Part shown: one piece after another, positions 4,925 through 45,962 of the stretch
Position numbering within the stretch: position 1 is the first letter of the stretch
How the letters are laid out: the number at the start of each line of letters is the position of its first letter
From: an uncultured delta proteobacterium
GTDB lineage: Bacteria; Desulfobacterota; Binatia; JACPRU01
Assembly (NCBI GenBank): GCA_963745025.1
Contig: CAVUWD010000005.1
Coordinates: forward strand, 128,001-192,000
Direction: 5' to 3'
DNA length: 64,000 nt
Made by a program: the position numbers and the translations under genes
Notes under the pieces: generated by a model
What the model was told of the DNA's origin: nothing
The model's input: only the letters and a program-made list of their open reading frames with translations
The model's database searches: none

Positions 4925-5024
4925 GAGACCGCGAACTATAACAGCCGCGTTCGCGAATGGAATCGGGGTCGCCGAAGCAGTTTGGACTTTCCAAGGCGGC
5001 GCGTGGTATCAGCGCGTTCATCCG

Positions 5025-44600: not shown

Positions 44601-45158
44601 ATGAGCCACGTCGGAGACCAAGTCCAATTCAGCCGCGATTGCGAGGTCGTGCAGATTCCCGCCGGTCACCGTCTCACGCTGCCGCGCGGCACGGAAGCCA
44701 TCCTCACGCAGTCCCTCGGCGGCACCTTCACGCTGCAGGTGCCCAAGCTCGGCGCGCTGGTTCGCCTTTCCGGTAGCGACGCGGACGCGATCGGCCTCGA
44801 GGCGGGCGTTCTGCCGCAGTCGGGCGTTCTGAGCGCCGCGGCCGGCGATCTCGAGCATGAAGTGTGGGAGATGCTGAAGACCTGCTACGATCCCGAGATC
44901 CCGGTCAACATCGTCGATCTCGGTCTCGTCTACGACCTGCGGGTCTCGTCGACGCCGAGCGGTCAGAGCGAGGTGGAGGTGAAGATGACCCTCACCGCGC
45001 AGGGTTGCGGCATGGGCGCCACGATCGCTGCCGATGCGCAGCAAAAGATCGAGATGCTGTCGGGAGTCGAAGAGGCGCGAGTCGAGATCGTCTGGGACCC
45101 GCCGTGGAGCCCGCAGATGATCTCGCGCGAGGGACGCGAGAAGCTGGGAATCGATTAG
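44601..45158 (+). CDS. sufT: Fe-S cluster assembly protein SufT (long DUF59 form)
   Basis: RDC...QIPAG, TQSLGG.FT, YDPEIPVNIVDLGLVY, MTLTA.GCGMG, WDPPW. Confidence 0.92.
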   Translation: MSHVGDQVQFSRDCEVVQIPAGHRLTLPRGTEAILTQSLGGTFTLQVPKLGALVRLSGSDADAIGLEAGVLPQSGVLSAAAGDLEHEVWEMLKTCYDPEIPVNIVDLGLVYDLRVSSTPSGQSEVEVKMTLTAQGCGMGATIAADAQQKIEMLSGVEEARVEIVWDPPWSPQMISREGREKLGID

Positions 45159-45159
45159 G

Positions 45160-45229
45160 GGGCTGCAGGCTTCGGGCTGCGGGAAGGACACCGCCGCGCT
45201 CTCCCGGAGCTCGTAGCCGGCAGCCGGCA
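45160..45229. repeat. REP-like heptamer palindrome, interrupted on its right arm by an inserted element
   Basis: ggctgca ggcttcg ggctgcg ... cgtagcc ggcagcc ggca. Confidence 0.7.
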
Positions 45230-45518
45230 TGTGACCCGCACCCGATCAGTTTTCGCACGACGCTCGAGGAGACGGACGCGGTCGGTTGTGGTCGGCCCGT
45301 ACTCGGGTCGATCACAATCGACCGCAACCGCGCGGAGCGCGGAAGACAATAACCCTCGACACGGTGCTGTCCTTAGGACAGCACCCTCGACACTGGTCTA
45401 TTGTCTTCCGCGCTTGCGCGCGGTGGCTGGATTTTCCGGTCGACCCGAATCCGGGCCGACGGGAAAATCCAGCGCTTCCGGATCGCGAGCGCCGGAGGCG
45501 AAGACTGAGGGCATCACA
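45230..45518 (+). mobile_element. 289-bp non-coding structured element (MITE-like and/or ncRNA)
   Basis: TGTGA...TCACA ends, flanked by direct repeat GCCGGCA (45223-45229 and 45519-45525), subterminal IR 45246-45256/45498-45508, four internal hairpins. Confidence 0.6.
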
Positions 45519-45527
45519 GCCGGCAGC

Positions 45528-45962
45528 CTAATTCGTTTGTATCTCCACCAGCCGTCCGTCCTCGAACGTGAGCGTGCCGAGAATCGAGAGCTGGCCGTTG
45601 TAGACCCAGGTCTCGCGGCGCTGTCCGCTGTCGGTCGTGCGAGTCTCGCGTCGTTCCGGCGACCCAGCCGCTTCGAGAGTCTCTTGGTCCGACATGCCGA
45701 GACGAAGGCCGTTCAGCCGGCGTGTTTGTGCTTCGTCCTGGCCAATCAGGTCGAACACGGTCGACTTGAAATCCTGCGCCGCTTGGACGCGGGGATCGGG
45801 CCGCGGCTCGCAGCCGATCGCTGCGAGCGTGACGAGCGTCAGAAGCGTCGCTTGGAGCCGCGTAATGGATTCTCCCGGTGGGGGGCGACGAAGTCGAACC
45901 AAGATGCTCCGCACCTCTGCAGCGTGCGCGGGCAAGTTAGCCGCTGAACCTCCGGCGCGCAA
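45528..45962 (-). CDS. Small putative lipoprotein (SmpA/OmlA- or DUF2845-like fold); true start probably further downstream
   Basis: Lipobox-like AIGC; L.LGMS..E.....G.P......ETWVY......L.FEDGRLV pattern. Confidence 0.65.
   Translation of the reverse strand: MRAGGSAANLPAHAAEVRSILVRLRRPPPGESITRLQATLLTLVTLAAIGCEPRPDPRVQAAQDFKSTVFDLIGQDEAQTRRLNGLRLGMSDQETLEAAGSPERRETRTTDSGQRRETWVYNGQLSILGTLTFEDGRLVEIQTN

What the first reader, a model, noticed from the sequence alone, without database searches (positions are those of the whole stretch)
45223..45525. 289-bp multi-hairpin non-coding element inserted into a REP arm, with a two-fold symmetric internal loop
Seen: the element runs TGTGA (45230) to TCACA (45518), bounded by a 7-bp direct repeat GCCGGCA inside a REP arm. 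Subterminal stem TCAGTTTTCGC/GCGAAGACTGA closes a junction with four hairpins. H1 (45278-45325) is a 22-bp stem with three G-U pairs. H2 (45327-45424) has a ~25-bp outer stem, an internal loop carrying the same ACCCTCGACAC on both strands, and a perfect GGTGCTGTCC-TTA-GGACAGCACC cap. H3 is 45426-45473 and H4 is 45475-45498. The cores of H1 and H3 are also mutually complementary (19/21), so it could switch between branched and rod forms. Six G-U pairs favour the + strand against one for the minus. No transposase or RT is nearby. Inference: a non-autonomous REP-targeting mobile element whose RNA or ssDNA fold is under selection, or a new ncRNA class. The internal-loop hairpin is loosely reminiscent of recombinase guide RNAs, but that is speculation.
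Basis: partly seen in the sequence, partly recalled or inferred. Interest (0 to 1): 0.82.

Follow-up and report, generated by a model that had tools for sequence, protein, structure and literature searches.

The report
IS66-type miniature transposon with hairpins
The element is one copy of a roughly 90-copy family of small non-coding "hitch-hiker" transposons (MITEs) that borrow the enzyme of an IS66-type insertion sequence in the same genome, so it is an ordinary kind of element, unusual only for internal hairpins kept intact by compensating mutations.

Summary
A 288-bp non-coding element (45230-45517) sits between 8-bp direct repeats (AGCCGGCA), inside one arm of a heptamer-repeat REP-like palindrome, and folds far better than shuffles.

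It is a MITE, not a new RNA class.
- Its family has about 89-100 places in this genome.
- Of 33 full copies, 10 have perfect 8-bp target duplications. The random control gave 23 of 5000.
- The consensus ends (GTAACGCCTCAGTCTTCG) match, 16 of 18, both ends of a 1,882-bp IS66-family insertion sequence.
- That insertion sequence is present three times in this genome and also makes 8-bp duplications.

The "two-fold symmetric internal loop" comes from a 31-bp secondary insertion found in only 2 copies. The H1/H3 complementarity reflects one 20-nt apical motif present in inverted orientation.

Hairpin stems covary strongly. There is no net G-U strand bias, no orientation bias relative to genes, no Rfam match, and no general REP targeting.

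This scan has noted IS66-type MITEs with hairpin cores in other genomes (AI notes). None resembles this one in sequence.

Verdict: a new member of a known kind, of low to moderate interest.

The parts
45222..45229 (.). Left copy of the 8-bp target-site duplication, AGCCGGCA
   Evidence: identical to 45518-45525. The register matches the other long copies (e.g. GCGCCGCG at C11:346654).
45230..45517 (+). The MITE itself (288 bp), a member of the 'long' subfamily with ends TGTGACCC...GGCATCAC
   Evidence: 84 BLAST places and 100 profile places in the genome. Eight long copies are 94.4-98.3% identical to each other.
45230..45256 (+). Left terminal inverted repeat region (TGTGACCCGCACCCGATCAGTTTTCGC), a diverged form of the family's GTAACGCCTCAGTCTTCGCC end
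Evidence: Alignments.
45278..45325 (+). Hairpin H1: 22-bp stem with the apical 20-nt motif TCGGCCCGTACTCGGGTCGA at 45292-45311
   Evidence: Across 54 copies, 97.9% of cells are paired and 12 of 22 pairs carry two-sided changes.
45328..45423 (+). Hairpin H2 (central long hairpin)
   Evidence: 87.9% of cells paired. The outer GC-rich stem is nearly invariant.
45363..45393 (+). Copy-specific 31-bp extra segment: a 20-nt palindromic filler (45363-45382) plus a second copy of ACCCTCGACAC (45383-45393; first copy at 45352-45362)
   Evidence: present only in this copy and in C16:85415-85690, absent from 7 other long copies and from the short subfamily; the 23-nt palindrome occurs nowhere else in the genome.
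45426..45473 (+). Hairpin H3: 22-bp stem whose apex (45440-45459) is the reverse complement of the H1 motif (variant loop in this copy)
   Evidence: Across 54 copies, 92.6% of cells are paired and 17 of 22 pairs carry two-sided changes.
45497..45517 (+). Right terminal inverted repeat (GGCGAAGACTGAGGGCATCAC)
   Evidence: the family consensus end matches the IS66-family IS end at 16 of 18 positions.
45518..45525 (.). Right copy of the 8-bp target-site duplication, AGCCGGCA
45159..45229 (.). Pre-existing REP-like palindrome of tandem heptamers. The MITE split its right arm (GTAGCCGGCAGCCGGCA | MITE | GCCGGCAGCC, continuing to about 45528).
   Evidence: a family of (GGCTACC)n - loop - (GGTAGCC)n palindromes, with at least 45 strict copies and 249 tandem-heptamer arms in the genome.
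44601..45158 (+). Upstream flanking gene (FeS_assembly_P domain, SufT-like). It is convergent with the gene on the other side.
   Evidence: PF01883, E 1.8e-15.
45528..45962 (-). Downstream flanking ORF (weak DUF2845 match)
   Evidence: E 1.6e-4, 22.3 bits against a cut-off of 21.

Best explanation
The element is a type II MITE. It is a 288-bp non-coding, non-autonomous DNA transposon that shares only its terminal inverted repeats with a resident IS66-family insertion sequence of the TnpB-less, ISBst12-like type. That IS is 1,882 bp and encodes a 468-aa DDE transposase.

Inferred mechanism: the transposase, made from one of the three IS copies, binds the roughly 18-20-bp ends of the MITE in trans. 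It moves or copies the MITE into a new site through cuts staggered by 8 bp, and repair of those cuts gives the 8-bp duplication.

This particular copy landed in the right arm of a REP-like heptamer palindrome between two convergent genes. Before its last move its lineage acquired a 31-bp insertion/duplication at the tip of the central hairpin.

The three internal hairpins are a family trait. H1 and H3 carry the same 20-nt apical motif in inverted orientation on stems that covary freely. Lineages that amplified therefore kept the hairpins. The likeliest reason is that a compact foldback or cruciform-prone body helps trans-mobilisation or persistence. That step is inferred, not shown.
For: Copy number: 84 BLAST places and 100 profile places (33 full-length), merging to 89 elements.

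Target-site duplications:
- 10 of 33 full copies have a perfect 8/8 duplication and 17 of 33 have at least 7/8. Random controls gave 23 and 260 of 5000.
- Among the 8 long copies at fixed ends, 2 are 8/8, 2 are 7/8 and 1 is 6/8. Three more show 8-9-nt repeats offset by 1-2 nt.

Partner IS:
- There are three IS66-family hits with identical scores. The copies are 99.9-100% identical in DNA, 1,882 bp long, with Pfam DDE_Tnp_IS66 (6e-38) plus zf-IS66.
- The ends are GTAAGGCCTCAGTCTCCG...CGGAGACTGAGGCCTTAC, with 8-bp duplications AACGATCG and CTTCTGGA.
- The MITE consensus matches the IS only at the terminal 18 bp, 16 of 18 at both ends.
- A different IS66-family IS in the sister genome has unrelated ends (GTAACCGTTCAC), so the match is specific and not just the generic GTAA.
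- No TnpB_IS66 was found in the genome.

Published ISBst12-group member: ISDge4 has TIRs GTGACTACTCAGCA/GTAACTGCTCAGCA, an 8-bp DR and a 449-aa transposase (PMC12898284, passages read). These are the same GTGA/GTAA...CTCAG termini.

Recent activity: the long copies are 94.4-98.3% identical to each other.

Distribution: the family was found in the same-genus genome G001 (34 matches). Relatives with the same end type and an 8-bp duplication were found in G005 of another genus. The orthologous intergenic site in G001 lacks it.

Hairpins: H1 has 97.9% of cells paired and 12 of 22 pairs with two-sided changes. H3 has 92.6% and 17 of 22. Shifted controls gave 23-52% paired and 4-9 such pairs. Column shuffles reached at most 90.0% and 83.3%.
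Against: - Mobilisation by this transposase is inferred from end similarity and equal duplication length. No transposition event or clean empty allele was observed; the G001 site holds a different repeat.
- The long subfamily's left end is diverged (TGTGACCCGCACCC...) relative to the IS end.
- The matching IS was not found in G001 (82% complete) although the MITE family is there.
- The most conserved part of the family is the hairpin apex, not the TIR (majority-base fraction 0.93 vs 0.82). A plain 'only the ends matter' model does not predict this.
- The IS also carries a 105-aa upstream ORF with a borderline DUF6788 match (27.0 bits against a cut-off of 27.2), so 'single ORF' is not strictly shown.
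Confidence: 0.87

Rival explanations
1. The element is primarily a structured non-coding RNA gene (a new sRNA or cis-regulatory RNA class) spread by transposition. Its hairpins would be selected at the RNA level on one strand.
For: - The fold is very stable (z -16.4) and the stems covary.
- The + strand folds 11-14 kcal/mol better than the - strand in this copy.
- One 189-nt contig from an RNA library covers 45401-45641 and skips H3 exactly (depth 2.7). This could mean read-through transcription of a structured region.
Against: - Rfam: 0 matches at gathering in the window, and only chance-level eukaryotic matches at E<=1.
- No promoter-like or terminator-like site was found.
- G:T versus A:C counts mirror each other in H1 (68 vs 12) and H3 (18 vs 56). 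This is what a two-fold symmetric DNA motif gives, not a single transcribed strand.
- MFE G-U counts are 5 on + and 6 on -.
- With crude gene calls, the intergenic contexts are tandem 46, divergent 17 and convergent 14, matching the genome-wide proportions (1732/646/565). Orientation in tandem contexts is 21 same and 25 opposite.
- Hairpin modules are precisely lost in some copies.
Confidence: 0.05
2. It is a REP/REPIN-type element mobilised as single-stranded DNA by a Y1 (RAYT/IS200-like) transposase that recognises the H1/H3 hairpins.
For: - The hairpins have conserved apical motifs and covarying stems, as in REPs.
- The genome encodes two Y1_Tnp proteins.
- This copy lies in a REP-like palindrome.
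Against: - The element has terminal inverted repeats and 8-bp target duplications, which HUH/Y1 transposition does not make (the property of Y1 transposition is recalled, not from a call).
- Neither the H1/H3 apical core (the 10-mer CCGTACTCGG, either orientation, up to 1 mismatch, gave only 2 chance-like hits outside any hairpin) nor heptamer arms lie within 2.5 kb of either Y1_Tnp gene.
- 117 of 120 genomic sites of the full 20-nt apical motif lie inside the MITE family, so the hairpin is not an independent REP.
Confidence: 0.03
3. The hairpin with the symmetric internal loop is a programmable guide, like the bridge RNA of IS110-type recombinases.
For: Only the appearance of this one copy: an internal loop with the same 11-mer on both sides. 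IS110-family genes exist in the genome.
Against: - The loop arises from a 31-bp insertion with an 11-bp direct duplication, present in 2 of 9 long copies and in no other family member.
- No IS110 gene is on the window's contig. The nearest IS110-MITE pair I noted is about 7 kb apart on C12.
- The element has IS66-type ends and 8-bp duplications.
Confidence: 0.01

Closest known systems
MITEs of prokaryotes, type II (sequence shared with the parent IS only in the terminal inverted repeats), as defined in the review PMC10969869 (passages read)
   Same: Small (288 bp; about 254 bp in the main subfamily), non-coding, with terminal inverted repeats, direct repeats of target DNA, many copies, mostly intergenic, and a very stable predicted stem-loop fold. 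Similarity to the IS is limited to 18 terminal bp.
   Different: The review describes MITEs as typically AT-rich. This family is GC-rich, in a genome whose contigs are 64-67% G+C. Its body is not one long foldback but three separate 22-bp-plus hairpins closed by the paired ends, with two inverted copies of one apical motif.
IS66 family, TnpB-less single-transposase group (ISBst12 group; e.g. ISDge4 of Deinococcus geothermalis, PMC12898284, passages read)
   Same: GTAA/GTGA termini followed by ...CTCAG, an 8-bp direct repeat, and a partner IS of 1,882 bp with one DDE_Tnp_IS66 transposase of 468 aa (ISDge4: 449 aa).
   Different: The element itself has no transposase. The partner IS has an extra 105-aa upstream ORF with a borderline DUF6788 match. 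The long subfamily's left end carries extra bases (TGTGACCCGCACCC...).
Modular, hairpin-rich bacterial repeats such as BOX elements of Streptococcus pneumoniae and the Correia element of Neisseria (named in PMC10969869 passages; their details here are recalled)
   Same: Mosaic build from modules that can be present or absent. Here some copies lack H1 precisely, and some have a duplicated H2. Strong predicted RNA/DNA structure.
   Different: Here a candidate parent IS with matching ends and matching duplication length is present in the same genome. No sequence similarity to those elements was tested or expected.
IS66-type MITEs with conserved hairpin cores noted earlier in this scan in other genomes (AI notes, unchecked)
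   Same: The same combination: IS66/ISBst12-type ends, 8-bp duplications, and internal hairpins kept by compensatory changes.
   Different: No sequence likeness to any of them (0 windows). The apical motif here is genus-specific: relatives in G005 keep the hairpin but not the motif.

Membership tests
MITE (miniature inverted-repeat transposable element) | Small size and no transposase of its own | tested here: met
   288 bp. The family profile is 254 positions. Frames are broken between copies by a 31-bp insertion and by hairpin-sized deletions. No protein search of the short internal ORFs was run.
MITE (miniature inverted-repeat transposable element) | Terminal inverted repeats | tested here: met
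   The family consensus starts GTAACGCCTCAGTCTTCGCC and ends GGCGAAGACTGAGGCGTTAC. The window copy has imperfect ends, TGTGACCC...TCAGTTTTCGC / GCGAAGACTGAGGGCATCAC.
MITE (miniature inverted-repeat transposable element) | Target-site duplication of fixed length | tested here: met
   8 bp. 10 of 33 full copies are perfect, against 23 of 5000 random controls. The window copy is AGCCGGCA, 8/8.
MITE (miniature inverted-repeat transposable element) | Multiple dispersed copies; presence/absence between relatives | tested here: met
   89-100 places on 17 of 20 contigs. Absent at the orthologous site of G001, though that site holds another repeat, so it is not a clean empty site.
MITE (miniature inverted-repeat transposable element) | Ends shared with an autonomous element that can act in trans | tested here: met
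   16 of 18 terminal bases are identical at both ends to the 1,882-bp IS present 3 times in the same genome. Actual trans-mobilisation is not testable with these tools.
IS66 family / ISBst12 group (as the source of the ends) | Termini beginning GTAA (GTGA in some members) | tested here: met
   The main subfamily has GTAA...TTAC; the window's subfamily has (T)GTGA...TCAC. ISDge4 has one GTGA and one GTAA end. IS66 IRs beginning GTAAGCG/GTAACCG are given in PMC12888890.
IS66 family / ISBst12 group (as the source of the ends) | 8-bp (8-9) direct repeats | tested here: met
   The figure for the family as a whole is recalled; 8 bp for ISDge4 comes.
IS66 family / ISBst12 group (as the source of the ends) | Partner IS encodes a DDE_Tnp_IS66 transposase and lacks the accessory TnpA/TnpB genes | tested here: met
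   PF03050 6.2e-38 and PF13005. PF05717 (TnpB_IS66) has 0 matches in the 92.65%-complete genome. Caveat: there is a 105-aa upstream ORF with a borderline DUF6788 match.
REP/REPIN mobilised by RAYT (Y1 transposase) | No target duplication; hairpins flank the RAYT gene | tested here: not met
   8-bp duplications are present. No hairpin carrying the 10-mer apical core and no heptamer arm lies within 2.5 kb of either Y1_Tnp gene.
IS110-type bridge/guide RNA | Encoded next to an IS110-family recombinase; loops specify target and donor | tested here: not met
   None of the 7 PF01548 hits is on the window's contig; a 7-kb gap on C12 was the closest pair I noted, and I made no full tally of distances. 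The loop is a copy-specific duplication.
Any Rfam RNA family | Score at or above the family's gathering threshold | tested here: not met
   0 matches in the 64-kb window. The best sub-threshold match is 24 bits against a threshold of 99.

The most novel reading that the evidence does not exclude
The two inverted hairpins (H1 and H3) are functional cis-acting modules rather than passive filler. Each carries the same 20-nt apex on a freely covarying 22-bp stem, and they are better conserved than the transposon ends themselves.

They would be read in a folded form (extruded cruciform, lagging-strand ssDNA or RNA). Their role could be to help an IS66-type transposase synapse the two ends of a MITE in trans, or to recruit a host factor. 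This would explain why IS66-type MITEs in unrelated genomes repeatedly carry structured cores (unchecked notes). It would also give the first handle on the poorly understood IS66 transposition mechanism.
Probability: 0.2. Interest if true: 0.55.

Novelty: new member of a known kind. Interest (0 to 1): 0.24.

Why it matters
This removes a candidate 'new RNA class / guide RNA' and replaces it with a well-supported annotation: a new, recently active MITE family and its likely parent IS in an uncultured soil bacterium.

Practical value:
- About 90 intergenic hairpin-rich repeats in this genome can now be masked or annotated.
- These repeats are also likely break-points for assembly and binning.

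Scientific value is modest. The family is a clean natural data set for asking whether internal hairpins matter for IS66-type transposition, whose mechanism is little known. It offers many diverged subfamilies, compensatory stem changes, a conserved apex and precise module losses.

Tried and rejected
- **Empty site.** The orthologous intergenic region of the same-genus genome G001 lacks the element but is occupied by a different palindromic repeat, so no clean empty allele was obtained.
- **Public genome scan with the H1 apex pattern.** 65 stretches matched. Only 6, all from one MAG record, carry the MITE. The rest are chance palindromes in unrelated taxa.
- **Sequencing runs.** Only Logan contigs were available. 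They cannot show expression level, ends or strand. Parts without cover mean nothing, so whether the element is transcribed stays open.
- **Gene calling.** Two crude callers were discarded for low coverage. The third (77% coverage) was used only for rough context and orientation counts.
- **Selection versus arm-to-arm correction.** Variant pair states seen in one copy were 24 one-sided mismatches against 22 two-sided pairs. Shared states were 16 against 29. This is a trend only and is inconclusive.
- **RAYT link.** Rejected.
- **IS110/bridge-RNA link.** Rejected.
- **REP targeting as a rule.** Rejected: 7 of 100 places lie near a heptamer arm. My rough estimate of the chance expectation is about 4 of 100.
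- **The 23-nt cap as an independent mini-repeat.** Rejected: it occurs only in the 2 MITE copies. One 24-nt match in G003 at E 6.7e-4 was taken as chance.
- **Literature.** Three searches found no paper describing an IS66-derived bacterial MITE with covarying hairpins. These were narrow keyword searches of open-access text, and supplements were not seen, so this is not a claim that none exists.
- **Earlier findings by sequence.** Nothing found.
Full report
**1. What is there**

The stretch 45159-45527 is the gap between two convergent ORFs:
- 44601-45158 on the + strand, with an FeS_assembly_P domain.
- 45528-45962 on the - strand, with a weak DUF2845 match.

- TGTGA at 45230 and TCACA ending at 45518.
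- GCCGGCA on both sides.
- A 22-bp H1 stem with three G:T pairs.
- A long central hairpin with ACCCTCGACAC twice and a perfect 10-bp cap.
- An H3 hairpin whose core is complementary to that of H1.

The region folds far better than chance on both strands. The + strand gives -214.7 kcal/mol (z -16.4, 0 of 100 shuffles as good). The - strand gives -200.2 kcal/mol (z -15.9).

One detail is not reproduced. MFE folds of the 288-bp element contain 5 G-U pairs on the + strand and 6 on the - strand, not six against one.

**2. It is a repeat family with target-site duplications**

A search of the window's own genome (5.65 Mb, 20 contigs, 92.65% complete, 7.6% contamination) gave these counts:
- 101 matching pieces.
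- By my own BLAST, 194 pieces at 84 places.
- A profile built from 18 copies of the commonest subfamily (254 positions) found 221 hits at 100 non-overlapping places: 33 full-length, 23 left-anchored, 19 right-anchored and 25 internal.
- These merge to 89 elements.

Nine copies belong to the window's 'long' subfamily, and one of them is truncated at the left end. Eight of them are 94.4-98.3% identical to each other.

Evidence for target-site duplications:
- Aligned with flanks, the long copies end at TGTGACCC...GGCATCAC and are bracketed by duplicated target DNA. Examples are AGCCGGCA (window), GCGCCGCG, and 8-9-nt repeats such as CGGAGGGAA and GTAGGCCGA offset by one or two bases.
- At fixed ends, 2 of 8 long copies are 8/8, 2 are 7/8 and 1 is 6/8.
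- In the 33 full copies, 10 have a perfect 8-bp repeat within 4 bases of the extrapolated ends (5 exactly at them), and 17 have at least 7/8.
- The same procedure at 5000 random places gave 23 and 260.

The direct repeat at the window copy is therefore a genuine target-site duplication. It is 8 bp (45222-45229 and 45518-45525), not a coincidence of heptamer units.

**3. The ends are those of a resident IS66-family insertion sequence**

The commonest subfamily starts GTAACGCCTCAGTCTTCGCC and ends GGC(G/C)AAGACTGAGGCATTAC.

The genome holds four Pfam DDE_Tnp_IS66 hits, and three have identical scores. Those three belong to a 1,882-bp element:
- The copies are 99.9-100% identical in DNA.
- The ends are GTAAGGCCTCAGTCTCCG...CGGAGACTGAGGCCTTAC.
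- The duplications are 8 bp (AACGATCG, CTTCTGGA).
- The 468-aa ORF matches DDE_Tnp_IS66 (6.2e-38) and zf-IS66.
- No TnpB_IS66 was found anywhere in the genome.
- A 105-aa upstream ORF has a borderline DUF6788 match.

The MITE consensus matches this IS only over the terminal 18 bp, 16 of 18 at both ends. That is the definition of a type II MITE in the review PMC10969869 (passages read).

The match goes beyond the generic GTAA. A different IS66-family element in the sister genome G001 (about 2.4 kb, 8-bp duplications) has ends GTAACCGTTCAC, which do not resemble the MITE.

A published member of the TnpB-less ISBst12 group, ISDge4, has TIRs GTGACTACTCAGCA and GTAACTGCTCAGCA, an 8-bp direct repeat and a 449-aa transposase (PMC12898284, passages read). 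This shows both terminal variants seen here (GTAA in the main subfamily, GTGA in the window's) and the ...CTCAG that follows.

**4.

(a) The 'two-fold symmetric internal loop'.
- Seven of the nine long copies, and all other subfamilies, read ...AATA-ACCCTCGACAC-TGGTC... at the tip of H2.
- The window copy and one other (C16:85415-85690, 97% identical) carry 31 extra bases. These are a 20-nt palindromic filler followed by a second ACCCTCGACAC.
- The 23-nt cap palindrome occurs nowhere else in the genome.
- The loop is therefore a secondary insertion with an 11-bp duplication, inherited by two copies. It is not a conserved functional loop.

(b) H1/H3 complementarity.
- The 20-nt motif TCGGCCCGTACTCGGGTCGA sits at the apex of H1. 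Its reverse complement sits at the apex of H3.
- With up to 3 mismatches it occurs 120 times in the genome, 117 of them inside the family's places.

(c) The 'subterminal stem' is simply the pairing of the two terminal inverted repeats.

(d) The REP arm.
- The flank is indeed a member of a separate repeat family: palindromes of tandem heptamers, (GGCTACC)n - loop - (GGTAGCC)n.
- There are at least 45 strict copies and 249 tandem-heptamer arms in the genome.
- The MITE split the right arm of one.
- This is not a rule. Only 7 of 100 family places have such an arm within about 65 bp, and my rough expectation for intergenic DNA is about 4.
- The other duplications (CGAGCGCC, CTCCCGCC, GGACGATC, TCGAGAAG, AAGAGGAG, CTGATTCC and so on) are unrelated to the heptamer.

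**5. Is the fold under selection, and as what?**

Across 54 copies that span H1 to H3:

| Measure | H1 | H3 | Shifted-partner controls |
|---|---|---|---|
| Cells paired | 97.9% | 92.6% | 23-52% |
| Pairs with changes on both sides | 12 of 22 | 17 of 22 | 4-9 pairs |
| Column-shuffle maximum (500 shuffles) | 90.0% | 83.3% | - |

. Diverged subfamilies have quite different stem sequences but still perfect 20-22-bp stems. The apex is the best-conserved part of the element, with a majority-base fraction of 0.93 against 0.82 for the ends. Hairpin integrity has clearly been maintained in the lineages that amplified.

Nothing points to a one-strand RNA:
- Top-strand G:T versus A:C counts are 68 vs 12 in H1 and 18 vs 56 in H3. 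This is the mirror image expected from one asymmetric motif placed in both orientations.
- Rfam gives no match.
- No promoter-like or terminator-like site is predicted.
- With crude gene calls, 77 intergenic copies lie in tandem, divergent and convergent contexts in genomic proportions (46/17/14 against 1732/646/565).
- In tandem contexts 21 copies point with the genes and 25 against.

Whether the compensation reflects selection on master copies or arm-to-arm correction could not be settled. In another genus (G005), relatives with the same end type and an 8-bp duplication (AGATCGCA) keep an H3-like hairpin but not the apical motif, and may lack H1. Some copies in this genome have lost H1 precisely. 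The hairpin architecture is therefore widespread, but no single module is indispensable.

**6. Distribution**
- Among 41 genomes searched (the window's own plus 40 relatives), matches were found in the window's genome, in the same-genus G001 (34 matches) and in G005 (5 pieces). G003 gave one 24-nt match that I take as chance. No match was found in the 33 genomes of other families of the class.
- An exact-pattern scan of one genome per species (185,579 species) gave 65 stretches. Only six, all from one MAG record, carry the MITE.
- The orthologous intergenic region in G001 lacks the element and holds a different palindromic repeat.
- Public read sets were available only as contigs. One DNA contig (210 nt, no differences) bridges the right junction. 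One RNA-library contig (189 nt, depth 2.7) covers 45401-45641 but skips H3 exactly. I treat the second as a weak hint of read-through transcription of a structured region, or as an assembly or RT artefact.

**7. Mechanism, with status of each step**

Shown:
- Inverted ends, 8-bp duplications, many dispersed copies and recent near-identical copies.
- A resident, multi-copy, intact IS66-family transposase gene whose IS has the same ends and the same duplication length.

Inferred:
- That transposase binds the MITE ends in trans and inserts the element through 8-bp staggered cuts.
- The window copy inserted into a REP-like palindrome between convergent genes, with no evident effect.

Inferred and weaker:
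- The internal hairpins persist because a compact, self-pairing body favours mobilisation or retention.

**8. Comparison and novelty**

The element meets every tested defining feature of a MITE, and of IS66/ISBst12-type ends. It fails the tests for REP/RAYT elements, IS110 guide RNAs and Rfam families (see the membership table).

This scan's earlier notes list at least eight IS66-type MITE families in other genomes, several with hairpin cores kept by compensatory changes (AI notes that I did not check). None resembles this one in sequence.

My three keyword searches of open-access papers found no description of such hairpin-bearing IS66-type MITEs. That is weak evidence of absence.

Verdict: a new member of a known kind. 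Interest is low to moderate. The one feature worth a bench test is whether the paired inverted hairpins matter for IS66-type transposition.

Noticed in passing
window 45159-45229 and about 45518-45528; also near window 12139, 23946 and 57678 (C5:140139, 151946, 185678) and dozens of other sites in the genome: A separate REP-like family: palindromes built of tandem heptamers, (GGCTACC)n - loop often GCAAAGAC...GTCTTTGC - (GGTAGCC)n, usually just after genes. There are at least 45 strict copies and 249 tandem-heptamer arms. The two Y1_Tnp genes in the genome are not flanked by them within 2.5 kb.
   Followed up: partly
L042 (G001:C9), the intergenic stretch orthologous to window 45159-45527: The sister genome has a different palindromic repeat of about 170 bp at this site, with inverted ends (TAGGAGTGGGCGCCACGGAT...ATCCGTGGCGCACACTCCTA). 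It may be another MITE family.
   Followed up: no
G000:C6:484414-488185 (L031/L032): Two copies of the 1,882-bp IS66-family IS lie head to tail, separated by exactly 8 bp (CTTCTGGA), and the same 8 bp follow the second copy. A similar head-to-tail pair of MITEs shares CTGATTCC at C11:414169-414522. This suggests insertion right next to an existing end.
   Followed up: no
L033:684-1001 (+), inside the IS, upstream of the transposase: A 105-aa ORF with a borderline match to DUF6788 (27.0 bits, cut-off 27.2, E 5e-6). It may be a small accessory gene of this IS66 subgroup.
   Followed up: partly
G000:C11:74148-74402 and C8:223521-223772: In these two copies the apex of H1 is flipped to the H3 orientation (GACCCGAG..CGGGCC) while the stem is unchanged. 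The hairpin tips can therefore invert.
   Followed up: no
G000:C12:40615-40812 and C16:413569-413766; C8:227766-228032; C13:239728-240005: Modular variants. Two otherwise complete copies lack H1 precisely (profile positions 51-98). Two others have an internal duplication around H2.
   Followed up: no
window 45401-45641, run X16 (RNA library), record 22: A 189-nt contig matches exactly on both sides but skips the 51 nt of H3 (45427-45477), at depth 2.7. It could be a reverse-transcription or assembly jump across the hairpin, or a strain lacking H3.
   Followed up: no
L113-L115 (G001): The sister genome carries three copies of a different IS66-family element of about 2.4 kb. Its ends are GTAACCGTTCAC, it has perfect 8-bp duplications, and its transposase is 31-32% identical to the one in this genome.
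   Followed up: partly
L039, L036, L041 (G005, another genus of the same family): Related MITEs with the same end type (GTATCCTCAGTCTCTGC...GAGACTGAGGCGTTAC), an 8-bp duplication (AGATCGCA in L039) and an H3-like hairpin, but a different apex and a different central part.
   Followed up: partly
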